Assembly (NCBI GenBank): GCA_001775995.1
Contig: MEZH01000007.1
Location: 46,934-110,933 of the forward strand
Source: Candidatus Bathyarchaeota archaeon RBG_16_48_13
GTDB lineage: Archaea; Thermoproteota; Bathyarchaeia; RBG-16-48-13
Length of the DNA: 64,000 nucleotides
Direction of reading: 5' to 3'
In this document: positions 5,734 to 64,000 of the stretch, piece after piece
How the letters are laid out: each line of letters starts with the position of its first letter
Numbering within the stretch: position 1 is the first letter of the stretch
Position numbers and translations under genes: made by a program
The notes under the pieces: model-generated
Told to the model about the DNA's origin: nothing
Database searches by the model: none
What the model saw: the letters and a program-made list of their open reading frames with translations, nothing else

Positions 5734-5746
5734 CCTTGAACCCCCT

Positions 5747-7898: not shown

Positions 7899-7952
7899 AG
7901 TTAGTCGCCTAGGCATCTGTCACTTCGAGGACTATCCGAGAGGACAGCCGGA

Positions 7953-10331: not shown

Positions 10332-10340
10332 AGAGAAAGA

Positions 10341-11282
10341 ATGCCCCATTTCGCCTGCCTAGTGGGAGGGAAAGCCGCCAAGAGGAGCAGATTCGGCTCC
10401 ATTTGGAAGAGCCATCAGATGGGAACCAAGCTGTCCGCTAAGGCCTGCCAAAAAGCACACCTGAGATTTCACGTCCTGGACTCGGAGTGGATATGGCATT
10501 ATCTGTCCCCAGAAGAAGCAAAAGATCTTGTCACGAATTTCCCCAGCCTGACAATGGTCCTTTCATTCGCCTCCAGACACAATGGGGCGCTCAAGATCCT
10601 CAGAAAAACCCTCGAAACAGGAATTGCAGATAAACTAGCATTGGACTTGGTGGTGGGCAACAACGCTTATCTAACCAGAAACGAGGCCAAGCGGGCGCCG
10701 GGAAGATCCTTAGTTGAAGCGGTAAAGTTCGCTCGTCGCCACTTTCAGGGCCCAGTGTTCGTGGGGACAGAGGGCATGTGGACGACCTCTGCGGAGCTCG
10801 CGGCTGAGTACGACTTGATACCGTTCTTCCTCTTGGACCGAAACATGGAGGAGAACCTTGGCCAGATCAGGGACTCCATGGGCAAGGGAAGCGTGGCGAT
10901 CTACGTGCCATTCATAATATCTGAGAACTACCCCCGCTTGTTGGACGATGTCCTTCAGAGACTCTCCGGATACATCTTCAGGAGGAAATGGGTTCAGAAG
11001 GGCTTGAGAGACTTGGGAGTGAACCCCTCTCAGCCACAGATAAGAGCGATAACGCAGGACAAACAGAAGATGACACCAGAGTTCCTGAAGAGTGAGCTTG
11101 GCGACTTCTTGCGTTCGGCCGCCTCCACATTATCCCTGTTTGGGACGCCAGAGACCGTTACCGAAAGGATCAGGGAACTCCATAAAGTCGGGTTCGATGT
11201 GATAGTTGGATATCCCATCAAAGAGAACGAGGAACAGGCGCTCGCTTTCGGCGATTGCATAAGGAAGGTCTCTGAGACATAG
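10341..11282 (+). CDS. Hypothetical divergent TIM-barrel / LLM-like protein
   Basis: 313-aa ORF 9 nt after the amidohydrolase; only the C-terminal SLFGTPETVTERIRELHKVGFD resembles LLM C-termini. Confidence 0.5.
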   Translation: MPHFACLVGGKAAKRSRFGSIWKSHQMGTKLSAKACQKAHLRFHVLDSEWIWHYLSPEEAKDLVTNFPSLTMVLSFASRHNGALKILRKTLETGIADKLALDLVVGNNAYLTRNEAKRAPGRSLVEAVKFARRHFQGPVFVGTEGMWTTSAELAAEYDLIPFFLLDRNMEENLGQIRDSMGKGSVAIYVPFIISENYPRLLDDVLQRLSGYIFRRKWVQKGLRDLGVNPSQPQIRAITQDKQKMTPEFLKSELGDFLRSAASTLSLFGTPETVTERIRELHKVGFDVIVGYPIKENEEQALAFGDCIRKVSET

Positions 11283-11288
11283 AAGGAC

Positions 11289-20284: not shown

Positions 20285-21736
20285 CTAAGTTATGGTTCTC
20301 ACAAGATGCTTTTCTCTGTCATAAATGTTGATTACCAAGGCGTTTCTTCCATCTATCAGGTGAGTGGCGCAGGCGAAGCAGGGGTCGTAGGCCCTGAAGG
20401 CCATTTCAACCATATTCAATAAGCCGTCGTCGACCATCCCATTCTTTATGAGACCTGAAGCCGCTGTCTTCACGGAGGTGCAGATGGCGGGGTAGTTGTT
20501 CGTCGTGGCGACAATAAGGTTCACGTCCTTTATCAATCCTTCTTCATCAAGTTTGTAGTGATGTATCAGAGTTCCTCGAGCCGCCTCGACCACCCCCACG
20601 CCCTCTCCAGACTTGGTCGGGAATCTCCTTATGTCTGTGCTGGTTATTTCAGGGTCCCTACTCAGTTCGAGGGTTCTCTCCGCCGCGTAGAGGAGCTCCA
20701 CGAGCCGGGCCCAGTGGTAAGCTAAGGTCGAGTGCAGAGGCTTGCCGCCGAGGGTCTCGTACATTCGCAGGTATTCCTGCTGGGCTAGGGGAGTTGCCAT
20801 GCTTTCCGAGGCGTTGAGCCTCGCCAAGGGGCCGACCCTGTATATCCCGCTCTCCGATCCGTCAACGTAGCCTCTCCAGCCCACGTTCTTCAGGTACGGT
20901 AGCTTGGAGTATGTCCACTCTTCAACTCTCTCCTCCACAACGTCGAAGTAGTCCCCTGGGTTGAACCTTAGATACTCCTTTCCGCTTTGATTGACAACTC
21001 TGATCTTCCCGTCATAAAAGTTGACCTTGTTCTTCTCGTCAACCATACCCATGTAGTAGGTCTCGAGGTTGTAGGCATTGCTCTTGATCAGCTTCATGAA
21101 CTCCTCGTTTCCCAAGACCACCTTCTCGAAGACCCCGAGGGAGAGTTTGGCGAATTCCACGCAAGACTCGGCCATCTCCTCTATCTCTTGCTGCTCCTTG
21201 TCGGTGATGGGTTTAGACATGCCGCCGGGAAGGGCACATACGGGGTGAGTTGCTTTCCCTCCGATTATGGCGGTGATCTTCTGGCCGTAAGCCCTGTGCT
21301 TAATGACATCTTTCCCGATTTCCAGGCCAAGCTTGTTGATAACGCCTATCACGTTTCTATCGGAGGCTGGCGCCTTCGGTCCTACGATGAAGTCGGGGCC
21401 GCCTAAGAAGTAGAAGTGGAGTATGTGATCGTAGATATAGTAGGCGTTGAACATGAGCTCCCGGAGCCTCTTGGCTGCTGGTGGAGCCTCGACCCCGAAG
21501 GCTTGATCAAGAGCCTTTGCCGAGGCCATGTGGTGCGCCACGGGGCACACCCCACATATCCGTGTGGTTAGCTGGGGCATCTCCTCTGCCTTTCTCCCTA
21601 TGCAGAATTTCTCGAAGCCCCGGAGTTCAGGTACTTGGAGGTAGGCGTTCTGGACGTTTCCAGCATCGTCGAGGAAGATCTCTATCTTTCCATGACCTTC
21701 CAACCTTGTCACTGGATCTATAGTGATTTTCTTCAT
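20285..21736 (-). CDS. mvhA: [NiFe] hydrogenase large subunit, group 3c (MvhA)
   Basis: PVTRLEGH, RGFEKF, RICGVC (L1), EAARGTLIHHY, RAYDPCFACATH (L2) followed by a cleavable tail. Confidence 0.92.
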   Translation of the reverse strand: MKKITIDPVTRLEGHGKIEIFLDDAGNVQNAYLQVPELRGFEKFCIGRKAEEMPQLTTRICGVCPVAHHMASAKALDQAFGVEAPPAAKRLRELMFNAYYIYDHILHFYFLGGPDFIVGPKAPASDRNVIGVINKLGLEIGKDVIKHRAYGQKITAIIGGKATHPVCALPGGMSKPITDKEQQEIEEMAESCVEFAKLSLGVFEKVVLGNEEFMKLIKSNAYNLETYYMGMVDEKNKVNFYDGKIRVVNQSGKEYLRFNPGDYFDVVEERVEEWTYSKLPYLKNVGWRGYVDGSESGIYRVGPLARLNASESMATPLAQQEYLRMYETLGGKPLHSTLAYHWARLVELLYAAERTLELSRDPEITSTDIRRFPTKSGEGVGVVEAARGTLIHHYKLDEEGLIKDVNLIVATTNNYPAICTSVKTAASGLIKNGMVDDGLLNMVEMAFRAYDPCFACATHLIDGRNALVINIYDREKHLVRTIT

Positions 21737-22704
21737 TACTTGACTCTCCTATTTATGATGGAAGAAGGCAAAGTGTACTTATAGAAGGTGCCAACGGGGT
21801 CCTTGATCTCGCCAACAAGCTGATCCATGTCATTCTCGGATTTTTCTTTCTCATTCTCTATCCCGAGGATGGAAGAGAGGGCGCCGATCATGGCCGCCCC
21901 TTGGTCCGAGGCGCCTGGTATTGGCCCCATACAACCTGTGCAGGGCATGTTAGCGTCTAGACACGGCTCGCCGCATCCTGATCGTGTTGCCGGACCCATG
22001 CAGATGATCCCTTGGTCTAGGAAACACTTCTTCGGGTCGAGTGCTGTTTCGTGGAAGCGTTTCACTTTTGCGATTTTCTTGTTTCCCTTTTCTCTCTTGC
22101 AGCTCTCACAAAGGGAGATCTCCGGTGCAAGAACTGAACCCTTCTTCGGATTTGTTCCCGAAGAAAAGGATTGAAGAACCTTGGCTATCAAGTCAACTGG
22201 AGGCGGGCAGCCGGGCAAGTAGAAATCTACATTCACCACTTGATCTAAGGTCTTGACGGTATCGTAAAACTCAGGCAAGGTAAGCTCGCCCTCCTTAGCT
22301 TCGGAGCAAGTCCTAGGAATCACACCAGGGAGGTTTTTGGTGGAGACACTTTCCCGGTAGACTTTCTCGAACACTGTCCTCCTATTGTGCAGGTTAGCCA
22401 ATCCCGGAACTCCGCCGCCACAGGCGCAAGAACCGAAGGAGATTAGAATTCTCGATTTCTTCCTAAGCAGCTTGGCTAAGAGTTCATTTTCCCCATTTCT
22501 TATGGAGCCGTTAAAGAAGCAGATATCGACGCTCTTGTCGCCCATTGCCTTTATATCTTTGTATTTGATGTCCATGACCACAGGCCAGAACACTATGTCA
22601 GCGACCTTCAACGTGTCTAGGATCTTCTCGTTGACATCGAGGACTGCCACTTCGCAGCCTCCACAGGTCGAAGCCCAGTAGAAGCCAATCTTCAATTTAC
22701 TCAT
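21736..22704 (-). CDS. mvhG: [NiFe] hydrogenase small subunit MvhG
   Basis: STCGGCE, GSCACGGG, YLPGCPP, CESC, CFLDQG..CMGPATRSGC...C, PCTGCMGP. Confidence 0.9.
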   Translation of the reverse strand: MSKLKIGFYWASTCGGCEVAVLDVNEKILDTLKVADIVFWPVVMDIKYKDIKAMGDKSVDICFFNGSIRNGENELLAKLLRKKSRILISFGSCACGGGVPGLANLHNRRTVFEKVYRESVSTKNLPGVIPRTCSEAKEGELTLPEFYDTVKTLDQVVNVDFYLPGCPPPVDLIAKVLQSFSSGTNPKKGSVLAPEISLCESCKREKGNKKIAKVKRFHETALDPKKCFLDQGIICMGPATRSGCGEPCLDANMPCTGCMGPIPGASDQGAAMIGALSSILGIENEKEKSENDMDQLVGEIKDPVGTFYKYTLPSSIINRRVK

Positions 22705-22718
22705 CAATGTGCCTCCCA

Positions 22719-23216
22719 TTATGCCTGTGAAGTAGAAGTGACCCGGGACGCTACCCTTTCAAGCTCTCTTAAGGAGGACCCAGCGAATTCTCCTCCCGTC
22801 TTCGTCAGCGGGTTGGGCCCAAGCCTCTTTATCTCGTCCGTCATCTCCTTTACGACATCAGCGAATCTCGCACCTTCCGAAGCCGAGACCCATTCAACCC
22901 TGAGCCGCTGGGGCTCGAAACCCAACTGTTGTAGGAGCTTCCTCAGGGCAGCGATCCTCCTATAGGTCTTGAAGTTGCCCGAGACATAATGACAGTCGGA
23001 AGGCAAGTGACAGCCCGCCACCAGCACCCCATCCGCTCCGCTCTTGAAGGCCTCAAGCACGAAAGCTGGGTCAATTCTCCCGCTACACATGACCCTTATT
23101 ATTCTGAGGTTCGGCGGGTATTGCATACGGCTTATTCCAGCTAGATCCGCGCCCGCGTAGGAACACCAGTTGCATAAGAATCCCAAGATTTTCGGCTGAA
23201 ATTCGTCTACGGCCAT
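22719..23216 (-). CDS. mvhD: MvhD [2Fe-2S] subunit
   Basis: FLCNWCSYAGADLAG, RVMCSGRIDP, GADGVLVAGCH..DCHY, WVSASEG. Confidence 0.92.
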   Translation of the reverse strand: MAVDEFQPKILGFLCNWCSYAGADLAGISRMQYPPNLRIIRVMCSGRIDPAFVLEAFKSGADGVLVAGCHLPSDCHYVSGNFKTYRRIAALRKLLQQLGFEPQRLRVEWVSASEGARFADVVKEMTDEIKRLGPNPLTKTGGEFAGSSLRELERVASRVTSTSQA

Positions 23217-23217
23217 T

Positions 23218-25191
23218 TCAATCCCTCAGAACTGCTTTGACCTGAGCTAGGATGGCATCATCTGTGAAGTGGCACATCTTGATTGACTTGGTAGGGCAAG
23301 CTGATCCGCAGACGCCACATCCCTTGCACAAGACTTCAATGACGCTCGACACCTGTTTGCCTGACTTCTCTTTCATCTTTATGGCGCCGTACTCGCAGAC
23401 GGATTCGCATATTCTGCATCCGGAACATAGATCCTCATCGACGCTCGCTATGATCCCTTCTAACTCAACCTTGCCCATCGATAAAGGCACGGCGGCTCTG
23501 GAGGCCGCTGCGCCAGCCTGAGCCACAGCATCGGGTATATCCTTTGGGCCTTGAGCCGCACCGCCCAAGAAGACGCCATCGATGTTGGTCTCGACGGGTC
23601 TCAGCTTCGGGTGTGCTTCCAAGAAGAAGCCGTCAGGTCCCCTCGAAAGCTTCAGAATGCTTTGGAGCTCCGAAGTGTCGGCCCTGGGGATGACACCCGT
23701 GGCCAACACAGCCAGATCGAACTCCCTCTCTGCGACTTCGCCCAGTAATGTATCTTCGAACCTTAGGACTAGATTCTTGTCATCGGGATTCTCCAGAATC
23801 TCGCCGACCCGACCTCTGATGAATCGCACACCTTCCTGCTGAACGCGTTCATAGAACTCCTCATAGCCTTTACCGAAGCACCTCATGTCTATGTAGAATA
23901 TCGAGACCTCCGCACCAGGGAACTTCTCCTTGATCTGGTGCGCTTGCTTCAAGGAGGCCATGCAACAAACCCTTGAACAGTAGAGGTTGGCGTTCTTGTC
24001 TCTGGAACCAACGCATTGAACGAATGCGACACTTCGCGGCGCCTTGCCATCGGAAGGCCTCAACACTTTCCCGCTAGTAGGTCCTGAGGCGTTCACCAAT
24101 CTCTCAAATTCCAACCCGTTTATTACATTTCGGTAGATTCCGTAACCGTACTCGGCTTTATGACCCGCGTCGTATAGGTCATAGCCAGTGGCGATGATTA
24201 TCGCCCCCACCTCGAGCTCCACTTCCGCGGGCAGCTGACCGAAGTCTATTGCCCCTGAGGTGCAGAACTTCTCACAAGCCCTGCAGATGTTCTTCTTGAA
24301 GTAGAGGCAGTTTTCTCTGTCAATGGTGTACCTCAACGGGACGGCTTGAGGGAAAGGAACGTATATCGCCTTTCTAGTGCCCAGGCCCAGGTCGAACTCG
24401 CTGGGGACATTGACCGGGCACTTTTCAGCGCACAAGCCACACCCGGTGCACTTGGATTCATCAACGTATCTCGGCTTCTTCAAGACCCTGGCCTTGAAGT
24501 TGCCTATGTAACCATCTATAGCCTTGACCTCAGAGTAGGCGAGCAAGCTGATGTTGGGGTGTCTAGAAATGTCCACCATCTTCGGCGTCAGGATGCATGC
24601 CGAGCAATCTAGAGTTGGAAAAGTCTTGTCGAGCTGAGCCATGTGGCCTCCAATGGATGGGGTCTTTTCCACTAGATGGACCTTGAAGCCTTGATCTGCA
24701 AGGTCCAAGGAAGACTGGATCCCAGCTATGCCGCCACCTATCACGAGGGCTGCAGGGGTCACTGGCACTTCACGCATCTGTAGGGGCTCGTCGAAGACTG
24801 ATTTGGCCACGGCCGCAGCTACGAGGGCGATGGCCTTTACCGTGGCTTTTTCCGGCTCCTTCATGTGGACCCAGGAGCACTGTTCTCTTATGTTAGCCAT
24901 CTCTACCAGATAGGGGTTTAAGCCGGCTTCTTGAGCGGCCTTTCTGAAAGTGGGCTCATGCATGCGGGGTGAACATGAGGCAACTATGACTCGGTTCAAC
25001 TTCCTGTCTCGGATGTCCTGTTTTATCATCGCCTGGCCCGGCTCCGAACACATGTACTTGTAGTCCTTGGCAAGCACAACATTCGGCAGACCTGCAATTC
25101 GCTGGGCGACCTTCTCTACGTCGACTGTACCCGCTATGTTGGTTCCACAGTGACAGATGTAGACGCCTATTCTCTCGTCAGCCATACTCAC
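23218..25191 (-). CDS. hdrA: Heterodisulfide reductase subunit A
   Basis: GVYICHCG, ASCSPR, NIREQCSWVH, IGGGIAG, KTFPTLDCSACIL, FVQCVGSR, YCSRVCC, two ferredoxin regions. Confidence 0.93.
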   Translation of the reverse strand: MSMADERIGVYICHCGTNIAGTVDVEKVAQRIAGLPNVVLAKDYKYMCSEPGQAMIKQDIRDRKLNRVIVASCSPRMHEPTFRKAAQEAGLNPYLVEMANIREQCSWVHMKEPEKATVKAIALVAAAVAKSVFDEPLQMREVPVTPAALVIGGGIAGIQSSLDLADQGFKVHLVEKTPSIGGHMAQLDKTFPTLDCSACILTPKMVDISRHPNISLLAYSEVKAIDGYIGNFKARVLKKPRYVDESKCTGCGLCAEKCPVNVPSEFDLGLGTRKAIYVPFPQAVPLRYTIDRENCLYFKKNICRACEKFCTSGAIDFGQLPAEVELEVGAIIIATGYDLYDAGHKAEYGYGIYRNVINGLEFERLVNASGPTSGKVLRPSDGKAPRSVAFVQCVGSRDKNANLYCSRVCCMASLKQAHQIKEKFPGAEVSIFYIDMRCFGKGYEEFYERVQQEGVRFIRGRVGEILENPDDKNLVLRFEDTLLGEVAEREFDLAVLATGVIPRADTSELQSILKLSRGPDGFFLEAHPKLRPVETNIDGVFLGGAAQGPKDIPDAVAQAGAAASRAAVPLSMGKVELEGIIASVDEDLCSGCRICESVCEYGAIKMKEKSGKQVSSVIEVLCKGCGVCGSACPTKSIKMCHFTDDAILAQVKAVLRD

Positions 25192-26084
25192 TTATTGCCT
25201 CCAGTTATGCCTAGTCTCTCCAAGTATGCGGGCGGGACGCTGTTGTCGTAGAGCCCGAGCTTCTCTGGAGACAGACCCATGGCTAGGCCCAGAAGTTGGG
25301 TAATATATAGAACAGGTACCCTTTCCTTCAACCTCCCTTTATCCCTGAGCTCGGTCTGGCCCAGATCGAACTGAAGGTGACAGAAGACGCAGGGCGTCAC
25401 GATGCAATCAACCCCTGCAGCGGTCATGTTCTGGACCTTTTCGAGCGTGAAGTCCAAGGCGACTAGCGGCTCGCCAGACCTGACGCCGCCGCCTGCCCCA
25501 CAGCAAATATTCTTGTCTTTGTATGGGACGCTCTCAGCCCCGACGAGGCTGACCAAGTCGTCCAAGAAGACGGGTCTCTCAGAGGAGCCGTGAGCCCTGA
25601 TCTTGGTGGGTTTTAAGTAATGACACCCGTAATGGGCCGCAACCCTCAGGCCTTTCAATTGCCGTGTTATATGGTTTTTCAGGGTTTCCGAGCCCACATC
25701 CTTGTCCAAGACCTCAACTACGTGTTTCACTTGAGTGCCGCCGCCGTAGCTTCGCTTTACCTTTTCCAAGAGTGCGTTTACTCTTCCTCGTCTTTCTTTG
25801 TCATTCAGTATGACGGAGGCTTCTTGAAGAGAGGCGTAGCAACCGTTGCAGGTGAGGGTTATGTCCAGCCCCAGCTGCTCTGCAATGGAGAGGTTTCTGG
25901 CACCTATGACTAGCCAGTTCTCAAGGTCGAAGCTCCCCAAGACACCTGGGGCCGGGCAGCAAGTGGCGCCGTTCATCTCTAGTAGGTCTATCTGAAATTC
26001 ATTCATTACGAGTCTCGTGGCGGCCTCGATGCCTGGATAGCGAAGGGGCATTATGCACCCTAGAAAGAAGGCGTATTTCTTCAT
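25188..26084 (-). CDS. hdrB: Heterodisulfide reductase subunit B
   Basis: FFLGCIMPLRYP, TCCPAPG, TCNGC, HYGCH, CCGAGGG, PCVFCHLQFD (two CCG domains). Confidence 0.92.
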   Translation of the reverse strand: MKKYAFFLGCIMPLRYPGIEAATRLVMNEFQIDLLEMNGATCCPAPGVLGSFDLENWLVIGARNLSIAEQLGLDITLTCNGCYASLQEASVILNDKERRGRVNALLEKVKRSYGGGTQVKHVVEVLDKDVGSETLKNHITRQLKGLRVAAHYGCHYLKPTKIRAHGSSERPVFLDDLVSLVGAESVPYKDKNICCGAGGGVRSGEPLVALDFTLEKVQNMTAAGVDCIVTPCVFCHLQFDLGQTELRDKGRLKERVPVLYITQLLGLAMGLSPEKLGLYDNSVPPAYLERLGITGGNK

Positions 26085-26647
26085 TTCTTATCCCTAATTA
26101 CCTTGTTGTAGAAGCCGTCAGTTCTCATGATCTCTTGGATCTCTGCTAGGGCCTCTGGAAACAGTAATGAGGTCGGAGGAACCGGGCTCAGACCAAGCTT
26201 GACGCGGGTCTTCTTCCCTTCCTCGTTGAGTGGTATCGTGTGACCGGTTTTTATGAAGTTGTTAGCAACGACGAGGTGGCGCTCCTTTGCTCTACCCTCC
26301 TCGAAGGCAATATTCCTGACGATCTTCACAATCTCGGTCACTCTCACGTCTCTGGGGCACCTTTCTTGGCAGGTATAGCAGGTAGTGCAAGACCAGAGAT
26401 CATTAGTATCCAGGACTTCTTCCCTATATCCCATCTGGATTCCCCTTATCATGGAGCGAATCCTCAAGGCGGTTCTCCTTCCTGAGGGACAGCTCCCAAC
26501 GCACGTTCCACATTGGACACATTCGTACAGGGTATTCAAATCTTCCAGCGGGTAGATTCTCGCTCCCCTACTCATCACTTCTTTGGCCAGATTCCAGGAG
26601 GGAACGCGGTTCGCTTTCGAGTCTTTCAAAGTGGACAGATCTGCCAC
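26081..26647 (-). CDS. hdrC: Heterodisulfide reductase subunit C
   Basis: CVQCGTCVGSCPSG and WSCTTCYTCQERCPR. Confidence 0.92.
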   Translation of the reverse strand: MADLSTLKDSKANRVPSWNLAKEVMSRGARIYPLEDLNTLYECVQCGTCVGSCPSGRRTALRIRSMIRGIQMGYREEVLDTNDLWSCTTCYTCQERCPRDVRVTEIVKIVRNIAFEEGRAKERHLVVANNFIKTGHTIPLNEEGKKTRVKLGLSPVPPTSLLFPEALAEIQEIMRTDGFYNKVIRDKK

Positions 26648-26725
26648 CTCTAAGGGGAAAAGTATTGTTTACAAGGACTACTTAAGGGGAAGCTATTAAA
26701 ACATAACGCAGTTATAATTAAGGCA

Positions 26726-27205
26726 TTAAAGCCGGCTTCCAAGGAGACTGGCGATCTCTTTTTCGACGAGCCGAGCAACCTCGGAGGCCCCTCGCCTTAC
26801 ATTTGAGTTTAAGCCCATCCTCATCTCGCTTACTTCAGCGACCTCGACACCTAATATCTTGACTTTGCTGGAAATGTTACCGTACAAAGCTTCGCTGAGT
26901 TTCAAGACCGTGGGTAGACCCAAGTCATGTAGGGTCAACATAGGAGAAGCTGGAAAATACTGTAACTCACCATAATCAAGGACTCGAATGCCCCCGACTT
27001 TTCCCCCAGATTTGAAGGCATCAACTATCAGGACCTTGTCAAACTTCCCGATGAGATCCACAAGATCTATTCCTCTCACACCCAACTCTATCAATTCAAC
27101 TTCGGGTGGTATACGCTTACGCTTCCTTAGCTTCTCCAGGACGAATGGTCCGACCCCATCATCCCCCAACAAGAGGTTGCCACAACTCACGACAGCGATC
27201 TTCAG
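26726..27205 (-). CDS. Hydrogenase maturation protease (HyaD/HycI family), probable CTG start
   Basis: GNLLLGDDGVG, IVDA, TLHDLGL; the KIAVV strand lies upstream of GTG 27190 and begins at CTG 27205/27208 just after an in-frame TAG. Confidence 0.85.
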   Translation of the reverse strand: MKIAVVSCGNLLLGDDGVGPFVLEKLRKRKRIPPEVELIELGVRGIDLVDLIGKFDKVLIVDAFKSGGKVGGIRVLDYGELQYFPASPMLTLHDLGLPTVLKLSEALYGNISSKVKILGVEVAEVSEMRMGLNSNVRRGASEVARLVEKEIASLLGSRL

Positions 27206-56355: not shown

Positions 56356-56451
56356 GCGGTCGTAGTCTAGTTTGGTCTAGGACGTCAGCCTGCCAACCGG
56401 ATCTAGGGCGGAGCGCTGGTGACCCGGGTTCAAATCCCGGCGACCGCACCA
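56356..56451 (+). tRNA. tRNA-Gly(GCC) with canonical 37/38 intron (56396-56413) and encoded CCA
   Basis: Acceptor GCGGTCG/CGACCGC, loop CTGCCAC after splicing, BHB helix CTGC/GCGG, T-arm CCGGG-TTCAAAT-CCCGG. Confidence 0.92.
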
Positions 56452-56952: not shown

Positions 56953-57051
56953 GCGGCTGTGGTCTAGTCTGGTCTAGGACTTCAAGTCCCTCAAGGGGCG
57001 AGCAAGCCTTCCAAGCTGACTACCCGGGCTCAAATCCCGGCAGCCGCACCA
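56953..57051 (+). tRNA. tRNA-Gly(TCC) with non-canonical 29/30 intron (56985-57005) and encoded CCA
   Basis: Acceptor GCGGCTG/CAGCCGC; removing 21 nt restores TCAGC-CTTCCAA-GCTGA; BHB bulges CAA and AAG around the GTCCC/GGGGC hairpin; T-loop CTCAAAT. Confidence 0.88.
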
Positions 57052-57056: not shown

Positions 57057-58046
57057 GTGGTCTCAGATTCAAAAAGGACGGGCGCAACACAAGTGGAAAC
57101 CTACAGCCCCGACGATCTCAGGGAAAAGTACAAGGAAACAAAGTGGATCTCGCCGTACCAGAAGATAGTGGCTGTCCATGATGAGAAATTAAGCCAAATA
57201 GAAGTCCACGAGTATCACGCCAGGGGGAAATGCGTTGGTGGGGCTGCTTGGGAAACATATCATTATCCCAGGGTCAGTCCTCTCGTCCTGGAGGCTCGAA
57301 GAGAAGGCCCAAAGAACATCTTTCGAGTCAAGACAGGGTCAACCAACTTGCATCTGGTTCCTGGAATAGCAGGTGCTGGCATCGAACAGGCTTGCGTCGA
57401 CGGAGAAGAGATAAAACTTACCTACGCCGGTCTGGCTGGAGGGGGCATAGCTGCAACAATATGCAGGGGTCTAGCTTCAGGCGTAAAGAGGATAGAGATC
57501 AAGGAAAGAGGTGGAGGGAACCAACTTGGCAGAGCTACTCTCATCCTCCCGCTGAAGCACAGATTGGTCGTTGGGATAGACGATACAGACAGCCCTTCAG
57601 GAGGCGCCACTTGGTCCCTCTCGAACGAATTGGGCTACTTTCTCGAGAAACATAGGCAGGCGGACTACCTTAACCACACCATCGTCCAGCTCTACACAGG
57701 GAACCCCTGGAAGACCACCAATGGCGTCAGCATAGCTTTGACCTTCGCCGTTTTGCCGCAGAAAAAAGAAAAGTTGATCCAAATCATAAAACGCCAACTG
57801 AGGCAGAATTCCCAATCATCGGAAACGGCCATCGCCCTATTTGACGGGATAAAGCCGCCGGACTCCATCAAGGTATTCGCTCTTCACGCTAAGACGCGCC
57901 TCATTGAGATGGAGGAAGCCCAAACAACGGCCCGAGGAGAAAATGTGTCTCTTGTTCCAATCACTGGTCAGCGTGGGGTCATAGGAGCTTTGGCAGCTAT
58001 TGGGTACGCCGATGAGCCTGATGAAGCCGTAAAGATCATAAAATGA
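57057..58046 (+). CDS. Methanogenesis marker protein 11-like (TiaS N-terminal-like, DUF1743)
   Basis: WISPYQKI, EVHEYH, SPLVLEARREG, YAGLAGGG, GGG..LGRAT, GIDDTD...GATW, NP.KTTN, GQRGVIGALAA.G. Confidence 0.75.
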   Translation: MVSDSKRTGATQVETYSPDDLREKYKETKWISPYQKIVAVHDEKLSQIEVHEYHARGKCVGGAAWETYHYPRVSPLVLEARREGPKNIFRVKTGSTNLHLVPGIAGAGIEQACVDGEEIKLTYAGLAGGGIAATICRGLASGVKRIEIKERGGGNQLGRATLILPLKHRLVVGIDDTDSPSGGATWSLSNELGYFLEKHRQADYLNHTIVQLYTGNPWKTTNGVSIALTFAVLPQKKEKLIQIIKRQLRQNSQSSETAIALFDGIKPPDSIKVFALHAKTRLIEMEEAQTTARGENVSLVPITGQRGVIGALAAIGYADEPDEAVKIIK

Positions 58047-58061
58047 TAACAGGCGATCACC

Positions 58062-59141
58062 ATGGACCCTACTCTCCTTAAAGTGAGTTTACTATGCTAT
58101 GGCGCACGATCCCCGCCAGATTTTGACAAAGGAAGATGTGGGGGTGCGGGTCCGGCTGGTGGAGGATATCTCGTTTTGGATGGCACCGCGACGCCGTCCA
58201 CGAACGTGGCGTTTCAGGGCCATCATGTGAGGAATTCCCCCTTTTCCATTGAGAAAGTTGGAGAAGAATGCTTGCTTTGCCAAGATAACGCCCCGTCGAT
58301 TGCGGTTCGGTTAGTCGAAAGACCGGCTTTTCTCGACAACAGAACCTCTGAGGGTATTCCTGTTTGGAAAATCGCGTCTTTTCACGGGAGCGATGCAATA
58401 GGCGTTACGATAGACAAGAACTGCTATTACTGGAGAAACAAACAGCAGTGCAAATTCTGCGCCATAGAGCAGAAAATCAAGACCCACTCCGGAAAGAGCC
58501 TTGCTATCAAGACACCTCAGCAAGTGAGTGACGCGATTGAGGCAGCGGTCGAATCAGGGTTCTGCCACCACGTGACCCTTACCACAGGCATCGCTGAGAC
58601 ACCTGACAGAGGAGCTACCCCCTATATACCAATACTTAGAGAAATTAGAAGGAACCTAAAAACTCCAGTTCATGTTCAGCTCGAGCCTCCTCAGGATCTT
58701 GAGATGCTGGGGAGACTATACGAAGAAGGAGCGGACACCGTTGGGCTCCACATTGAGAGCCTTGACGAGAAGGTCAAGAGAAGAGTCTGCCCGGGAAAGC
58801 CGCCAGATAGAGTATATTTTCGGGCTTGGAAATATGCTGAAAAGACTTTTGGCCAAAATCAGGTCAGCACGTTCATTCTGGTCGGACTTGGTGAGGACCC
58901 AAAGCTGACAGATAGAAGATTGGAGAATGTGACATCGGCCGGCGCGATTCCATTTGTAACGCCCTTTAGACCCCTTCTAGGGACAGAATTGGAAAATGAG
59001 GATCCACCAAATCCTTCGTATCTTCTGGGAATCACGGAAAAGGCCGTAGTCAAAATGAAAGACAGTGGTATGAAACCCAATGAGAACAGAGCGGGTTGTG
59101 TGAGGTGCGGAGCCTGCTCCGCCATAATGGAAGTTTTTTGA
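58062..59141 (+). CDS. Radical SAM protein, MSMEG_0568-like
   Basis: Non-canonical CX8CX2C (CYYWRNKQQCKFC), TLTTG, VQLEPP, GLHIES, ILVGLGE, PFRPL.GT, C-terminal AGCVRCGACS. Confidence 0.7.
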   Translation: MDPTLLKVSLLCYGARSPPDFDKGRCGGAGPAGGGYLVLDGTATPSTNVAFQGHHVRNSPFSIEKVGEECLLCQDNAPSIAVRLVERPAFLDNRTSEGIPVWKIASFHGSDAIGVTIDKNCYYWRNKQQCKFCAIEQKIKTHSGKSLAIKTPQQVSDAIEAAVESGFCHHVTLTTGIAETPDRGATPYIPILREIRRNLKTPVHVQLEPPQDLEMLGRLYEEGADTVGLHIESLDEKVKRRVCPGKPPDRVYFRAWKYAEKTFGQNQVSTFILVGLGEDPKLTDRRLENVTSAGAIPFVTPFRPLLGTELENEDPPNPSYLLGITEKAVVKMKDSGMKPNENRAGCVRCGACSAIMEVF

Positions 59142-59165
59142 GAACTACCTTGAGGCTTAAGGGTA

Positions 59166-59999
59166 TTGGACATTCTCAAGAGAATTCAAGAACTCCAGCG
59201 AAATAGTCATCGAATAGGGTTTGGGGTCAGGGTTGAAGACAGGACTCACCCAGACAAGATCATAGAGGTCGCGGAAAAAGTGGAGTCCATGCATTTTGGG
59301 AGGGTCATCTATGTGGGACAAATGTGTTCATCGCCAATGAGGGATGCAATCTATACCGAGGAACCTGAGAGAATGCTATTAGATCTCCTGTGTATGGGGG
59401 ATATCGATGCCGCGGTTAGGGGGACTGCAAAGGCATCCGTTATTTTGAGATTAATAAAAGAAAAACTTGGGCAACGGTCTTTCTTTAGGATTGCTCTCCT
59501 AGAAACAAGTATGGGTCATCAGTTCCTCTTAGCACCAGTGGGGATTGATGAAGGTAGCTCGATAAATGAGAGACTGACGATTATCACGTCTGGGGCTCAA
59601 CTGCTGAAGCAGCTTGGGGTCGAACCTAGGATTGGTGTACTTTCAGGTGGCAGGATGGAGGACATAGGTAGAAGTCCCGATATTGACAAGACTATAGAAG
59701 AGAGCCAGGAGCTGACGAGCAAAGCGCGGGAACAACTGCCTTACATAATAGAGCATTATGGAATACTGGTCGAAGACGCCATACAGGCGAGAGCAAATCT
59801 TATCCTTGCACCTAACGGCATGATTGGTAACTTCGTCTACCGGACGCTCATCCATCTGGGTTCTGGCAAGTCCCATGGTGCTATCTACGTCGGCATTAAC
59901 GAAATACTGGTAGACACGTCACGATCTGCTCCCCCAGAGGAATATTTACATGCCATTCGCCTTGCAAATGCGCTGACCACGATAGCAAAAAGAATCTGA
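59166..59999 (+). CDS. mtxX: Methanogenesis marker Mmp4/MtxX family protein
   Basis: DAAVRGT, LLAPVGIDEG, GVLSGGR.ED.GR...IDKTI, GIL.E.A, AP.G..GN..YR, VDTSR. Confidence 0.82.
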   Translation: MDILKRIQELQRNSHRIGFGVRVEDRTHPDKIIEVAEKVESMHFGRVIYVGQMCSSPMRDAIYTEEPERMLLDLLCMGDIDAAVRGTAKASVILRLIKEKLGQRSFFRIALLETSMGHQFLLAPVGIDEGSSINERLTIITSGAQLLKQLGVEPRIGVLSGGRMEDIGRSPDIDKTIEESQELTSKAREQLPYIIEHYGILVEDAIQARANLILAPNGMIGNFVYRTLIHLGSGKSHGAIYVGINEILVDTSRSAPPEEYLHAIRLANALTTIAKRI

Positions 60000-60043: not shown

Positions 60044-60140
60044 GGGCCGGTAGCTCAGCCTGGTATGAGCGCTGCGTTGGCATCGCAGAGACCCATTGTA
60101 GGGCTGTAAGTCACGGGTCCGAATCCCGCCCGGTCCACCA
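60044..60140 (+). tRNA. tRNA-Ala(GGC) with non-canonical 45/46 intron (60091-60109) and encoded CCA
   Basis: G3:U70 identity pair, CTGCG-TTGGCAT-CGCAG; BHB helix GCAG/CTGT with bulges AGA and AAG; splicing gives variable loop AGGTC; T-loop TCCGAAT. Confidence 0.9.
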
Positions 60141-61915: not shown

Positions 61916-63205
61916 CTAGCACTTTGGAAATGCTGGATTTAGGATTTCGAGTCTGCTCAGTTCTTGATCCAACAACAAAAGGAAAGTCCCTATATCTGAA
62001 ACCAGCCCCATGGCTTGTGTAGTCCCCCTATCGAGAAGCTTCGTCACAGTTGCCGGGTTGATGTCAACGCAGACTACCGTGACATCTGATGGAAGCATGT
62101 TGCCTACAGCTATTGAATGAAGCGTTGTAGATAGCATCAACACGACCCTTGCACCTCTCAAGGCTTCTTTGTATTTCTTCTGAGCTTCCACCACATCAGT
62201 GATCACGTCGGGCAATGGCCCATCATCCCTAATGGAACCTGCAAGGACGCATGGAACGCCATTCTTTACGCATTCATAAATAATGCCACTGTTAAGGACA
62301 CCCTTCTTCATAAGCTCGGATAATGAGCCCGCCTTGAAGACTTCGTTGATGGCTGCTATGTGATTTCGGTTTCCCTTTATTGTGGACGAACCGTCTGTGA
62401 GCCTTATCCCTAGAGATGTGCCATATAGAGCAGATTCCACGTCATGGACAGCTAGGGCATTACCGGCCAAGAGGGCATTAACATAGCCTTCTCTTATCAG
62501 TCTCGCCAGCGCTCCGGAAGATCCTGTGTGAACAACAGCTGGGCCCGCAACTACTACTATCTTGCCCCCTAGGCGTTTGATTTCGTATAGGCTCTGCGCC
62601 ACTCGCCTTATGATCGAATTGGAAGGCTTCTCCGAAGAGACGCTGCTGCTCATGAACTCGAAAACGCCAACGCCCTCTCGCGGGCGCTCAGGGGGTTTGA
62701 TCTTTATTCCCACGTCTTCGACAACTATTAGATCGTCTTTCTTGACCTCTCTTATGGCCCTGCAGTAGGCTTCACTCTTCCTCCTATCGACAACAATCGC
62801 CTTGTCCATCATCAAATTCTTGACAACCACCCATTTTCCGTCGAGATAGATGAAGGTTGGATGGTTGGCCGTGGAGTAGAAGCCATCAGGCAAAACCATG
62901 TCGGCTGGAGCGGGCTCAAGCTTGACCTCTCGTTCCTCCCTTGATACGGCTCCAAGCCCGTAAAGCTCATGCAACATGTTCTGGAGGTGCCCTTCATTGC
63001 GTCCTTTCACAACCAATCGAGCGTAGCTGTAGTCAGTCTTCCCTTTCCCTATCTTGAATTCTACGACTTTGAAATCTCCTTCGAGATCCATGATCTTGTC
63101 AAAGATTTTTGTCAAGATCATAGAGTCTATGAGGTGGCCTTCGACCTCTATCTCATGCTCAAAGGTCTTCTTGTGAAAAGATTTCTTCGGCTGAAAAGTG
63201 GACAC
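61916..63205 (-). CDS. TIGR00300 family protein (LOR/SDH-related, ornithine cyclodeaminase-like)
   Basis: IEVEGHLIDS, PDGFYST.NHPT, FEFM.S.VSSE, GPAVVHTG, AGNALAVHD.E..L.GTSLG, LAGSIRDDGPLP, LHSIAVGN; start uncertain. Confidence 0.88.
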   Translation of the reverse strand: MSTFQPKKSFHKKTFEHEIEVEGHLIDSMILTKIFDKIMDLEGDFKVVEFKIGKGKTDYSYARLVVKGRNEGHLQNMLHELYGLGAVSREEREVKLEPAPADMVLPDGFYSTANHPTFIYLDGKWVVVKNLMMDKAIVVDRRKSEAYCRAIREVKKDDLIVVEDVGIKIKPPERPREGVGVFEFMSSSVSSEKPSNSIIRRVAQSLYEIKRLGGKIVVVAGPAVVHTGSSGALARLIREGYVNALLAGNALAVHDVESALYGTSLGIRLTDGSSTIKGNRNHIAAINEVFKAGSLSELMKKGVLNSGIIYECVKNGVPCVLAGSIRDDGPLPDVITDVVEAQKKYKEALRGARVVLMLSTTLHSIAVGNMLPSDVTVVCVDINPATVTKLLDRGTTQAMGLVSDIGTFLLLLDQELSRLEILNPAFPKC

Positions 63206-63287
63206 CCTTGTAGAACCAAGCACCACTCTGGATGCGTTGAGGAGATAGAATTGAGGTAGACACGATATAAAGGTTACATTTCCTCTA

Positions 63288-64000
63288 TTAAGCACTTAAG
63301 GTGGGAATAACTTTCTCTCCAAGCAGGCTCAAGGCTTCACCAATGTTGGGGCCATATGGTTGAAACAGATTGACTCTGGTCGCACCGTTTCTCTGATATG
63401 CCAAGATCTGTTCTGAACATTGTTCAGGAGTGCCAACGATTGCAAAGGGTCTAGCCAGCTCAGGCGTAATCAGTCGTGAAGCAGCAATTTCACCATGCTT
63501 AATCATAGTATCAGCAATCAGTCGCTGCATCTTCGGATTGATGTTTGCTGACTCCAGAAGATACGGGTTACAGTCCTTGATTTGAACCGCAAAGTTGAAT
63601 CTCAGAGCCGGATCTTTAAGGAGATAATTTAGTGCATCCTCAGATCTGGGCGCTATGCATAGGTTGATTGAGCATATCAAATCGAATATTCCTGGTTTTA
63701 TCCGTCTTCCAGACTTTCTGAGTCCGGGTTCAGCGAATCGGATAGCGTCTTGAAGAAAACCTAGAGGTGGAGCTCCAAGGTTTATTCCATCAGCTAACTC
63801 GCCTGCCAAAGCCTCTGTCTTTGGTCCCCTAACAGCTAGATAGATAGGTATCCTGTGATTCTTGGGGGGTTGGGCGAGATAAGCGTCTCTCAATTCCATC
63901 GTCTTGCCCTTGAAGTTGATTCTCTTTCCGTCAAAAAGCAATCTAGCTACAGTTACGGCTTCCCTTAGGTGTGCCAACGGCCTATCCCAGAGTGGCTTGC
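63288..64000 (-). CDS. LLM-class (Mer-like) oxidoreductase, 5'-truncated by window edge
   Basis: Open frame runs off the window (KPLWDRPLAHLREA); IPIYLAVRGPK...LAGELADG, AIVGTPEQC, GPN..EAL.LLGEKVIP. Confidence 0.82.
   Translation of the reverse strand, partial: KPLWDRPLAHLREAVTVARLLFDGKRINFKGKTMELRDAYLAQPPKNHRIPIYLAVRGPKTEALAGELADGINLGAPPLGFLQDAIRFAEPGLRKSGRRIKPGIFDLICSINLCIAPRSEDALNYLLKDPALRFNFAVQIKDCNPYLLESANINPKMQRLIADTMIKHGEIAASRLITPELARPFAIVGTPEQCSEQILAYQRNGATRVNLFQPYGPNIGEALSLLGEKVIPTLSA

What the first reader, a model, noticed from the sequence alone, without database searches (positions are those of the whole stretch)
57057..59999. mmp11 - atypical radical SAM - mtxX: candidate uncharacterised biosynthetic or modification operon
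Seen: three tightly spaced genes (gaps of 15 and 24 nt) between two tRNAs. Known: Mmp11 (TiaS N-terminal-like, GIDDTD motif) and Mmp4/MtxX (phosphotransacetylase-like fold) are methanogenesis markers of unknown function. The CX8CX2C radical SAM with terminal CxxCxxC resembles the MSMEG_0568 family, known from a different bacterial gene cluster. Inference: ATP-dependent activation, radical C-C or C-S chemistry and acyl/phosphoryl transfer acting on one product, such as a C1-cofactor side chain or a tRNA/protein modification. I know of no description of this three-gene combination.
Basis: partly seen in the sequence, partly recalled or inferred. Interest (0 to 1): 0.7.

Follow-up and report, generated by a model that had tools for sequence, protein, structure and literature searches.

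The report
Methanogen-marker and radical-SAM gene module
Three tightly packed genes of unknown function (two "methanogenesis markers" and an unusual radical-SAM enzyme) recur together in many archaea, including ones that make no methane. They track the thiol-recycling enzyme heterodisulfide reductase, so they probably build a small thiol-type cofactor.

Summary
Mmp11 (57057/57093-58046), a CX8CX2C radical-SAM protein (58062-59141) and Mmp4/MtxX (59166-59999) lie 15 and 24 nt apart between two intron-bearing tRNA genes.

The adjacency is not unique. At least two of these genes lie side by side in nine or more lineages, and all three in about six, in at least three different orders. This includes cultured Geoglobus acetivorans and Methanonatronarchaeum.

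A fourth partner appears: an AIR-synthase-like protein that scores best as methanogenesis marker 2 and second-best as the Nit1C protein sll0787/NitF. The radical-SAM enzyme is an ortholog of Nit1C's NitD. The trio is therefore an archaeal variant of the unsolved Nit1C core, fused to markers 4 and 11.

The host is a Bathyarchaeon (75% complete) in which no MCR was found. Among 61 Bathyarchaeia, all 7 genomes carrying any module gene belong to the 12 that have canonical HdrB. Only one of the 7 has McrA.

My best reading is a single pathway for a small acidic/hydrophobic thiol or phospho-acyl cofactor serving HdrABC. Final assembly of coenzyme B, or of a similar thiol, is my specific guess at about 0.25.

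The papers I read do not mention the radical-SAM link. This scan had flagged the same stretch and Nit1C-like archaeal cores before.

The parts
56953..57048 (+). Intron-bearing tRNA gene directly upstream of the operon
   Evidence: Rfam RF00005, 39.1 bits; not called by ARAGORN; sequence read
57057..58046 (+). Mmp11 (methanogenesis marker 11). It has a family-specific N-terminal domain of about 156 aa plus a TiaS-type kinase domain (TCKD). The likely true start is the GTG at 57093.
   Evidence: TIGR03280 343.1 bits, over cut-off. PF22641 at residues 171-242. Fold match to TiaS 3amt: Z 22.4, rmsd 1.8 over 152 residues, restricted to model residues 155-313. DDTD and the Thr18 equivalent are invariant. 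Homologue lengths are 309-320 aa.
58062..59141 (+). NitD/MSMEG_0568-type radical-SAM enzyme, with CX8CX2C, a C-terminal CX2CX2C (probably an auxiliary cluster) and a conserved N-terminal beta domain carrying a GRxGGAGPAGG loop
   Evidence: Model pLDDT 94. Nearest folds are LipA, HydE, PylB and BioB. In the tree it is sister to an AIRS-linked Bathyarchaeota NitD-type protein.
59166..59999 (+). Mmp4/MtxX, a phosphotransacylase-fold protein with a DTSR motif at residues 250-253
   Evidence: TIGR03270 224.3 bits, over cut-off. E 2.4e-43 to the crystal structure 9NZY of M. thermautotrophicus MtxX. Motif position.
60044..60140 (+). tRNA-Ala(GGC) with intron, the downstream border of the operon
   Evidence: ARAGORN; Rfam 45.7 bits
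60219..60569 (+). Small dicluster ferredoxin, a possible electron donor to the radical-SAM enzyme (inferred)
   Evidence: NCBIfam ferredoxin matches. A 112-aa Fer4 gene holds the same position after the trio on the related contig of P0006, and a Fer4 protein follows the rSAM gene in L073.
20285..27190 (-). mvhADG-hdrABC operon with a hydrogenase protease. It is linked to the module by co-occurrence, not adjacency.
   Evidence: HdrB TIGR03288 383.7 bits and HdrC TIGR03290 189.3 bits, both over cut-off, plus HdrA, VhuD/G/A-like proteins. Co-occurrence across 61 genomes is.

Best explanation
The three genes form one transcription unit and belong to a four-family functional module:
- Mmp11, a TiaS-type ATP-dependent O-kinase with a unique substrate domain;
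- a NitD-type radical-SAM enzyme with a probable auxiliary Fe-S cluster;
- Mmp4/MtxX, a phosphotransacylase-fold protein that lacks Pta's catalytic Asp;
- an Mmp2/sll0787-type AIR-synthase-like ATP enzyme, encoded elsewhere or not recovered in this genome.

I infer that the module makes or tailors one small molecule through ATP-driven O-phosphorylation or acyl-phosphate formation, acyl or phosphoryl transfer and, where the radical-SAM enzyme is present, radical functionalisation (possibly sulfur insertion) of an aliphatic acid. The product is most likely an acidic, partly hydrophobic thiol-type cofactor used with HdrABC.

My specific guess (about 0.25) is the unassigned last steps of coenzyme B, or of a CoB-like thiol. 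In that scheme Mmp2 activates the carboxylate, MtxX transfers the acyl group from acyl-phosphate to threonine, Mmp11 phosphorylates the threonine hydroxyl, and the radical-SAM enzyme offers an optional alternative route to the mercapto-acyl chain.

What is shown: family identities, conserved linkage, homology to the Nit1C core, and co-occurrence with HdrB independent of MCR. What is inferred: every catalytic role and the product.
For: Linkage. Module genes lie side by side in shuffled orders:
- Mmp11-rSAM-MtxX here and on the P0006 contig.
- Mmp2-like<>Mmp11-rSAM-MtxX directly after mcrBDGA in GCA_024256265.
- MtxX-Mmp11-rSAM in G046 and the G061/62/85-87 clade.
- rSAM-Mmp11-MtxX in J060.
- Mmp11-MtxX-Mmp2-like in G005.
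- Mmp11-rSAM with overlapping genes in Geoglobus acetivorans.
- rSAM-Mmp11 in Methanonatronarchaeum.
- rSAM next to Mmp2-like in Bathyarchaeota, Thermoplasmata and bacterial Nit1C-type loci.
- mmp2-mtxX adjacency in Methanomicrobiales is published (PMC12978539).

Phylogeny. Mmp11-linked and AIRS-linked rSAMs interleave in the tree, with at least 4 switches.

Fourth partner. The adjacent AIRS proteins score best on Mmp2 (242-364 bits) and next on sll0787 (187-304 bits).

Literature. MtxX, the AIRS-like protein and the TiaS-like protein are markers m15-m17. Those three are among the few that persist in non-methanogens, and no function has been inferred for them (PMC9635834; PMC4153887).

Co-occurrence. 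In 61 Bathyarchaeia the 7 genomes with any module family (G000, G005, G026, G027, G046, G047, G052) all fall among the 12 with strong HdrB. The naive hypergeometric probability is 2e-6, and 0.003 at family level. McrA was found in only one of the 7.

This window carries mvhADG-hdrABC.

Chemistry hints:
- Mmp11 keeps TiaS's DDTD, the Thr18 equivalent, PxKT and GRGxIGALAAIG.
- The MtxX crystal paper concludes that its ligand is hydrophobic plus acidic and sits where acetyl-phosphate binds in Pta.
- Asgard rSAM orthologs pair with an acyl-CoA-synthetase-alpha-like protein.
- Thioredoxin-reductase-like genes flank the module in three lineages, and CoM-type genes (cysteate-synthase-like plus ComDE) follow it in Geoglobus.
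Against: - No enzyme of the module has been assayed, so the product is a guess.
- G027, a 100%-complete McrA+ Bathyarchaeon, has rSAM and Mmp2-like but no Mmp11 or MtxX. Methanosaeta concilii has only an mtxX pseudogene (PMC4153887). Mmp11 and MtxX therefore cannot be universally required for an MCR cofactor.
- Classical methanogens and the lone-Mmp11 genomes G070-G083 lack the rSAM ortholog.
- Bacterial Nit1C hosts have no CoB.
- Five HdrB+ Bathyarchaeia lack the module.
- ComDE is missing from most module genomes.
- The repeated adjacency of thiL/thiDN is not explained by this reading.
- No Mmp2-like gene was found in this 75%-complete genome.
- The genomes compared are related to each other, so the co-occurrence statistics overstate significance.
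Confidence: 0.45

Rival explanations
1. Thiamine-related function. The module acts in thiamine or TPP biosynthesis, salvage or derivatisation, for example processing of the Thi4 thiazole product or a phosphorylation step.
For: The only thiL of the genome lies directly beside the module in three unrelated lineages: G061 (rSAM><thiL), G052 (thiDN-mmp11><thiL) and Methanonatronarchaeum (thiL-rSAM-mmp11). yjbQ, the 'secondary thiamine-phosphate synthase', precedes the trio in this window. The rSAM gives weak matches to ThiH.
Against: Thiamine is made by nearly all archaea, yet Mmp2/4/11 occur in methanogens and under 5% of other archaea (PMC4153887). thiL is not adjacent here, in G046 or in Geoglobus. 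This reading does not explain the HdrB co-occurrence.
Confidence: 0.12
2. Macromolecule modification. The TiaS-like kinase and the radical-SAM enzyme modify a tRNA/rRNA base or a protein residue, for example on Hdr or MCR subunits, through O-phosphorylation of an amide carbonyl followed by radical chemistry.
For: The TCKD of TiaS acts on tRNA C34 and on its own Thr18, and its catalytic motifs are kept. The operon lies between tRNA genes. In one genome the module follows mcrBDGA. LipA, one of the nearest rSAM folds, acts on a protein-bound substrate.
Against: Mmp11 lacks TiaS's OB and zinc-ribbon tRNA-binding domains; it scores 48.9 bits on the TiaS model against a cut-off of 600. MtxX has a small-molecule cleft. 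The module persists without MCR. Flanking tRNA genes were not seen in the other loci examined.
Confidence: 0.13
3. Metallocluster or Fe-S maturation. The module builds or inserts a special cluster, such as the non-cubane clusters of HdrB or the L-cluster-like clusters of the MCR activation complex.
For: The module co-occurs with canonical HdrB. The rSAM has an extra Cys motif, and NifB and HydE appear among its fold matches. Mmp2 resembles HypE/SelD-type maturases. The 2025 activation-complex paper does not mention Mmp2, Mmp4 or Mmp11 (PMC12176620).
Against: Five HdrB+ Bathyarchaeia lack the module. Classical methanogens lack the rSAM. Bacteria with Nit1C lack canonical HdrB and MCR. MtxX's acidic/hydrophobic ligand cleft fits an organic molecule better.
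Confidence: 0.1
4. Nit1C-like nitrogen or nitrile metabolism. As in bacteria, the rSAM-centred genes serve a nitrogen-starvation or cyanide/nitrile-related pathway, and Mmp11 and MtxX are lineage-specific add-ons.
For: The rSAM is orthologous to NitD, and Mmp2-like proteins are homologous to NitF/sll0787. A Thermoplasmata locus also carries the MSMEG_0565-type glycosyltransferase. The Nit1C composition is taken from PMC11049912.
Against: The genes annotated next to this trio include no nitrilase, GNAT or flavoprotein. The function of NitD and NitF is itself unknown, so this rival names a relative rather than a mechanism.
Confidence: 0.1
5. Evolutionary remnants with no shared function. These would be leftover methanogenesis genes that merely happen to be neighbours.
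For: Adam et al. treat m15-m17 in non-methanogens as remnants (PMC9635834).
Against: The ORFs are intact and highly conserved: mean column identity is 58% for Mmp11, 65% for its N-domain and 50% for the rSAM. Adjacency is kept while gene order changes across phyla. Near-complete MCR-less genomes retain the module.
Confidence: 0.03

Closest known systems
Nit1C cluster (nitBCDEFGH of Pseudomonas; sll0783-0787 of Synechocystis; MSMEG_0565-0572)
   Same: The radical-SAM protein has the same architecture and motifs: an N-terminal GRxGGAGP domain, CX8CX2C and a C-terminal CX2CX2C, all invariant across archaeal and Kineococcus members. It nests among NitD-type proteins in the tree. Its usual partner, the sll0787/NitF-type AIR-synthase-like protein, is homologous to Mmp2, which joins this trio in other genomes.
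   Different: No nitrilase, GNAT, flavoprotein or glycosyltransferase lies beside the trio here. Mmp11 and MtxX are not Nit1C components. The TIGR04043 score is just under its cut-off (286.9 against 303.7). The Nit1C core itself has no known chemistry (PMC11049912).
TiaS (tRNA-Ile2 agmatidine synthetase)
   Same: The C-terminal half of Mmp11 has the TCKD kinase fold (Z 22.4 to 3amt). It keeps DDTD, the Thr18 equivalent, PxKT and GRGxIGALAAIG.
   Different: Mmp11 has no ferredoxin-like, OB or zinc-ribbon tRNA-binding domains. In their place it has a unique, very conserved 156-aa N-terminal domain, found only in Mmp11 among 1.84 billion representatives. It scores 48.9 bits on the TiaS model against a cut-off of 600.
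MtxX/Mmp4 of Methanothermobacter thermautotrophicus (PDB 9NZY) and phosphotransacetylases
   Same: It is clearly the same family as 9NZY (E 2.4e-43) and has the DTSR motif. It shares the Pta/Ptb/PlsX fold (PMC12978539).
   Different: The published synteny (mtxAH, mmp2, mmp12, uppS) does not include Mmp11 or a radical-SAM gene. MtxX lacks Pta's catalytic Asp. Scores on Pta/Ptb models are far below cut-off.
LipA / BioB / HydE / PylB group of radical-SAM enzymes
   Same: These give the best fold matches (Foldseek E 3e-9 to 1e-7, TM about 0.5) and weak sequence matches. Some of them carry an extra Fe-S cluster, from general knowledge, as the extra Cys motif suggests here.
   Different: The cluster motif is CX8CX2C instead of CX3CX2C. 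The extra N-terminal domain is unmatched. The auxiliary Cys motif is C-terminal. No substrate is known.

Membership tests
Mmp11 (TIGR03280, methanogenesis marker 11) | HMM score over the curated cut-off across the full length | tested here: met
   343.1 bits against 255.8, profile positions 1-291 of 292
Mmp11 (TIGR03280, methanogenesis marker 11) | Occurs only in methanogens (the distribution that gave the family its name) | tested here: not met
   No McrA, McrG, McrC or McrD was found in this 75%-complete genome. None was found in G046 (98% complete), G005, G026 or G052. Geoglobus, a non-methanogen, also has Mmp11. This concerns the family's name, not homology.
TiaS (NF040849) | Full-length match including the tRNA-binding OB and zinc-ribbon domains | tested here: not met
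   48.9 bits against a cut-off of 600; only TiaS positions 2-153 align. The fold match is limited to model residues 155-313.
TiaS (NF040849) | TCKD catalytic motifs: DDTD and the Thr18 equivalent | tested here: met
   D163, D164, T165, D166 and T173 are invariant in 36 sequences. They align to D8, D9, T10, D11 and T18 of A. fulgidus TiaS. The roles of these residues are recalled from the TiaS literature.
MSMEG_0568 / NitD radical SAM (TIGR04043) | HMM score over the curated cut-off | tested here: inconclusive
   286.9 bits against 303.7. NCBI gives this family name to archaeal homologues at 36-43% identity, and the tree nests this protein among AIRS-linked members.
MSMEG_0568 / NitD radical SAM (TIGR04043) | Atypical CX8CX2C cluster motif plus a C-terminal CX2CX2C | tested here: met
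   C121/C130/C133 and C346/C349/C352 are invariant in 32 sequences, including Kineococcus
Nit1C cluster | Neighbouring nitrilase, GNAT, sll0787-type AIR-synthase-like and flavoprotein genes | tested here: not met
   The neighbours annotated are YjbQ, a ferredoxin, an unknown 271-aa protein and an NPN-dependent ornithine cyclodeaminase, plus a 107-aa ORF whose counterpart on the related contig is FUN14. No Mmp2/sll0787-like gene was found in the 75%-complete genome.
Mmp4/MtxX (TIGR03270) | HMM score over cut-off and similarity to the solved MtxX | tested here: met
   224.3 bits against 190. E 2.4e-43 to 9NZY over residues 81-270. DTSR at residues 250-253.
Phosphotransacetylase / phosphotransbutyrylase | Score over the family cut-offs; catalytic Asp | tested here: not met
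   Best score 34.6 bits against cut-offs of 310-475. Loss of the catalytic Asp in MtxX is taken from PMC12978539 and was not checked residue by residue here.
Coenzyme B biosynthesis (proposed role) | Present in every organism that uses MCR/CoB | tested here: not met
   G027 is McrA+ and 100% complete but lacks Mmp11 and MtxX. mtxX is a pseudogene in M. concilii (PMC4153887).
Coenzyme B biosynthesis (proposed role) | Enzyme activity on 7-mercaptoheptanoate or its threonine amide | not testable with these tools
   Needs biochemistry

The most novel reading that the evidence does not exclude
Mmp2, Mmp4/MtxX and Mmp11 are the long-missing enzymes for the last steps of coenzyme B synthesis: carboxylate activation, N-acylation of threonine from an acyl-phosphate, and threonine phosphorylation. 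The NitD-type radical-SAM enzyme provides an alternative sulfur-insertion route to the mercapto-acyl chain. MCR-less archaea such as this Bathyarchaeon and Geoglobus would then make a CoB-type thiol as the substrate of their otherwise 'orphan' HdrABC.
Probability: 0.22. Interest if true: 0.9.

Novelty: new variant of a known kind. Interest (0 to 1): 0.68.

Why it matters
Markers 2, 4 and 11 are among the most conserved methanogen genes without a function. Papers from 2022 and 2026 state that neither context nor structure revealed their role. This analysis adds four things:
- It ties the three markers to each other and to a radical-SAM enzyme.
- It links them to the 20-year-old unsolved bacterial Nit1C cluster.
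- It separates them from methane formation and connects them to heterodisulfide reductase.
- It names a cultured non-methanogen, Geoglobus acetivorans, that carries all four genes.

This turns several open questions into direct experiments. What do these markers do? What is the substrate of HdrABC in archaea without MCR? Which enzymes finish coenzyme B? What does the Nit1C core make? Methanogen-specific cofactor enzymes are also candidate targets for methane mitigation.

Tried and rejected
- Complex prediction on Mmp11 plus the rSAM gave 'no answer' (score 0.00). It counts neither for nor against binding.
- Fold of the Mmp11 N-domain. Foldseek and VIA-wide lists were filled by the TCKD half, with only generic ferredoxin-like rows reaching residues 27-150. 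The atlas returned only Mmp11-like clusters. There was no Pfam hit. hhalign of the N-domain against the C-domain gave probability 0.2, so it is not an internal duplication.
- An exhaustive profile search with the N-domain found only Mmp11-type proteins and fragments, and no informative fusions.
- ComDE as a proxy for CoM synthesis is present in only 2 of 5 module genomes and Geoglobus, and is absent even from McrA+ G027 and G061. It is therefore uninformative.
- Mmp16/ComF gave only partial sub-threshold relatives.
- The 'AIRS' genes next to the module in L028, L100 and L105 turned out to be true thiL, not Mmp2. I dropped my first reading of them as the fourth partner.
- The 700-bp gap after the Geoglobus rSAM holds no MtxX.
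- Searches for papers naming marker 11 returned nothing. The MCR activation-complex paper does not mention Mmp2, Mmp4 or Mmp11.


Full report
**1. Observation**

The window holds three same-strand ORFs at 57057-58046, 58062-59141 and 59166-59999. The gaps between them are 15 and 24 nt.

- Mmp11: TIGR03280, 343.1 bits against a cut-off of 255.8. The TiaS TCKD domain (PF22641) covers residues 171-242.
- Radical SAM: PF04055; 286.9 bits on TIGR04043 (MSMEG_0568), just under its cut-off of 303.7; 186 bits on NF045502 variant_rSAM.
- Mmp4/MtxX: TIGR03270, 224.3 bits against 190.

The motifs are C121-X8-C130-X2-C133 and C346-X2-C349-X2-C352 in the radical-SAM protein, GIDDTD at residue 173 of Mmp11 and DTSR at residue 250 of MtxX.

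The operon lies between an intron-bearing tRNA at 56953-57048, which Rfam finds and ARAGORN misses, and tRNA-Ala(GGC) at 60044-60140. Homologues of Mmp11 are 309-320 aa long. The real start is therefore probably the GTG at 57093 rather than 57057.

**2. The host**

The assembly is 849 kb in 16 contigs and 75% complete. The closest radical-SAM loci in named genomes are indeed Bathyarchaeota.

No McrA was found with TIGR03256. No McrA, McrG, McrD, McrC or Mmp8 was found by tblastn with proteins from a related mcr locus.

The window does carry a complete operon on the minus strand at 20285-27190: hydrogenase protease, hdrC, hdrB, hdrA, mvhD, mvhG and mvhA. HdrB and HdrC score over their equivalog cut-offs.

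**3. The adjacency is conserved, with shuffled gene order**

The same families lie together in these loci:
- A metagenome contig whose radical-SAM protein is 59% identical has the same order and the same wider synteny.
- GCA_024256265 has Mmp11-rSAM-MtxX directly after mcrBDGA, with a divergent AIR-synthase-like gene and with MtaA, Mmp8, McrC and an A2-like gene nearby.
- G046, a 98%-complete Bathyarchaeon without McrA, has MtxX-Mmp11-rSAM.
- A clade of McrA+ MAGs (G061, G062, G085-G087) has MtxX-Mmp11-rSAM, sometimes with a second Mmp11 copy.
- MAG J060 has rSAM-Mmp11-MtxX beside uppS.
- G005 has Mmp11-MtxX followed by an AIR-synthase-like gene.
- Cultured Geoglobus acetivorans has overlapping Mmp11-rSAM genes.
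- Methanonatronarchaeum has rSAM-Mmp11.

Adjacency that survives changes of order across phyla is the classical sign of functional coupling.

**4. A fourth partner and the Nit1C link**

I scanned 80 genome loci holding relatives of the radical-SAM protein. Three contexts appear:
- next to an AIR-synthase-like gene, in bacteria, Bathyarchaeota and Thermoplasmata;
- next to an acyl-CoA-synthetase-alpha-like gene, in Asgard archaea;
- with Mmp11 and MtxX.

The archaeal AIR-synthase-like proteins score best on methanogenesis marker 2 (TIGR03267, 242-364 bits). Their second-best match is the sll0787 family, the NitF protein of the bacterial Nit1C cluster. A Thermoplasmata locus also has the MSMEG_0565-type glycosyltransferase.

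In a tree of 88 radical-SAM proteins, the Mmp11-linked and AIRS-linked members interleave, with at least four switches. The window's protein is sister to an AIRS-linked Bathyarchaeota protein (SH-aLRT 97). The Asgard CoA-ligase-linked proteins form a separate clade.

The radical-SAM gene is therefore an ortholog of Nit1C NitD. Its Nit1C partner NitF is homologous to Mmp2. NitD and NitF have no known function (PMC11049912).

Every Mmp11 genome I tested has an Mmp2-like gene somewhere. None was found in this incomplete genome.

**5. What the literature says**

- Borrel 2014 lists the AIR-synthase-like protein and the 'Zn-ribbon DNA-binding' protein (Mmp11) as present in all methanogens and in under 5% of other archaea. 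MtxX is present in over 90% of methanogens (PMC4153887).
- Adam 2022 numbers them m15 (MtxX), m16 (AIRS-like) and m17 (TiaS-like). It finds m15-m17 among the few markers that persist in non-methanogens and could not infer a function (PMC9635834).
- The 2026 MtxX crystal paper reports synteny with mtxAH, mmp2, mmp12 and uppS. It concludes that the ligand is probably hydrophobic plus acidic and sits where acetyl-phosphate binds in Pta (PMC12978539).
- None of these papers mentions a radical-SAM partner or Nit1C. No paper in the library names marker 11.

**6. Anatomy of the proteins**

Mmp11. The model has pLDDT 94. Its C-terminal half is a TiaS TCKD (Z 22.4, rmsd 1.8 Å over 152 residues to 3amt). 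DDTD, the Thr18 equivalent, PxKT and GRGxIGALAAIG are all invariant. It lacks TiaS's tRNA-binding domains.

The 156-aa N-terminal domain of Mmp11 is more conserved than the kinase domain, at 65% mean identity. Invariant residues are E40, H42, R44, C47, W53, E54, H57, N75, E98, Y111 and R125, together with Gly-rich loops. It matches no Pfam family and is not a copy of the C-terminal domain. Among 1.84 billion representatives it was found only in proteins of Mmp11 length (about 280-355 aa) or in fragments (88 hits). I take it to be the substrate domain. This is inference.

Radical-SAM protein. The model has pLDDT 94. It is a full barrel closest to LipA, HydE, PylB and BioB. It carries an unmatched N-terminal beta domain with an invariant GRxGGAGPAGG loop and a C-terminal Cys triad. 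Nearly invariant C243 could be a fourth ligand. The triad is likely an auxiliary cluster.

MtxX. It matches the solved structure 9NZY at E 2.4e-43.

**7. Distribution test**

I searched this genome plus 60 Bathyarchaeia relatives.
- Mmp11 or close relatives occur in G000, G005, G026, G046 and G052.
- Mmp2-like proteins occur in G005, G026, G027, G046, G047 and G052.
- The radical-SAM protein occurs in G000, G027, G046, G047 and G052.
- Strong HdrB matches occur in 12 genomes.

All 7 genomes with any module family fall among those 12. The naive hypergeometric probability is 2e-6, and 0.003 when counted by family. The genomes are related to each other, so these figures overstate significance.

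McrA was found only in G027. Within this class the module therefore follows canonical heterodisulfide reductase rather than MCR.

**8. Other context signals**

- Thioredoxin-reductase-like genes flank the module in Geoglobus, G005 and G026.
- In Geoglobus, Mmp11-rSAM is followed by cysteate-synthase-like, fused ComDE and SsuA-like genes, which is a coenzyme-M-type set. MtxX lies 15 kb away and Mmp2-like 170 kb away.
- Ferredoxin genes follow the module here, on the related contig of P0006 and in L073.
- Unexplained: the single-copy thiL abuts the module in three lineages. In one of them Mmp11 sits between thiDN and thiL. yjbQ precedes the trio in this window.

**9. Interpretation**

Shown: a four-family module, its homology to the Nit1C core, its independence from MCR and its association with HdrB.

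Inferred: all four partner types handle ATP-dependent O-phosphorylation or acyl-phosphate/acyl-thioester chemistry. These are the AIRS superfamily, TCKD, the Pta fold and, in Asgard archaea, ACD-alpha. The radical-SAM fold group includes enzymes that functionalise aliphatic chains, some of them by sulfur insertion.

The simplest single product is a small acidic, partly hydrophobic thiol or phospho-acyl cofactor used with Hdr. Coenzyme B (7-mercaptoheptanoyl-threonine phosphate) fits the chemistry step by step. To my knowledge, its last enzymes are unassigned.

The evidence against is real:
- G027 has MCR but lacks Mmp11 and MtxX.
- M. concilii has only an mtxX pseudogene.
- Classical methanogens lack the radical-SAM enzyme.
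- Nit1C bacteria have no CoB.
- The thiamine linkage is unexplained.

I therefore give 0.45 to the general reading and about 0.22-0.25 to the CoB-specific one. The rivals are thiamine, macromolecule modification, cluster maturation, Nit1C-type nitrogen metabolism and remnants.

**10. Novelty**

The families are named but uncharacterised. The linkage of Mmp11 and MtxX to a NitD-type radical-SAM enzyme, and through Mmp2 to Nit1C and HdrB, was not in any paper I could find.

The scan itself had flagged this same stretch (e1-2771953). It had also flagged Nit1C-like archaeal cores on other DNA (e1-3388888, e1-1453874). I reached the Nit1C and Mmp2 links independently before reading those notes. They agree with my results.

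Noticed in passing
window 56356-56451, 56953-57048, 60044-60140: All three tRNA genes near the operon are 93-97 nt long, so they carry introns. The middle one is found only by Rfam (39 bits) and is missed by ARAGORN. Its T-loop reads CTCAAAT.
   Followed up: partly
window 20285-27190 (-): A complete mvhADG-hdrABC operon with a hydrogenase maturation protease, in a genome where no MCR was found. This is an 'orphan' heterodisulfide reductase whose substrate is unknown.
   Followed up: partly
window 61916-63295 (-): A nickel-pincer-nucleotide-dependent ornithine cyclodeaminase (TIGR00300, 585 bits) lies 2 kb downstream of the trio. The same neighbour is present on the related metagenome contig.
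   Followed up: no
L100 (G052:C219) 1352-4691; L028 8062-9027; L105 3815-4765: The genome's only thiL lies directly beside Mmp11 or the rSAM in three unrelated lineages. In G052, Mmp11 sits between thiDN and thiL.
   Followed up: partly
L104 (Geoglobus acetivorans CP087714) 4838-11840: A thioredoxin reductase is divergent from Mmp11-rSAM. Downstream come cysteate-synthase-like, fused sulfopyruvate decarboxylase (ComDE) and SsuA-like genes. This is a coenzyme-M-type set in a non-methanogen.
   Followed up: partly
L116/L125 (G087:C1) and L118/L124 (G086:C21): Two Mmp11 paralogues flank the module (Mmp11-MtxX-Mmp11-rSAM and MtxX-Mmp11-rSAM-Mmp11).
   Followed up: no
L005, L009, L012, L017-L019 and about 15 more Asgard loci: In Asgard archaea the NitD-type radical-SAM gene pairs with an acetate-CoA-ligase-alpha-like gene (CoA_binding + Succ_CoA_lig) instead of the AIRS-like gene or Mmp11.
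   Followed up: partly
L131 (Geoglobus G176:C1:29300-48500) 6767-13323 (-): MtxX sits in a tightly overlapping operon with a MetE-like protein, a MarC/NAAT transporter, a Nudix hydrolase, an RlmB-like methyltransferase and a divergent 438-aa AIRS-superfamily protein.
   Followed up: no
G000:C12:18796-19686: A 523-aa protein partially matches methanogenesis marker 16 / ComF (139 bits, positions 1-291 of 391). Similar proteins occur in G046 and Geoglobus.
   Followed up: no
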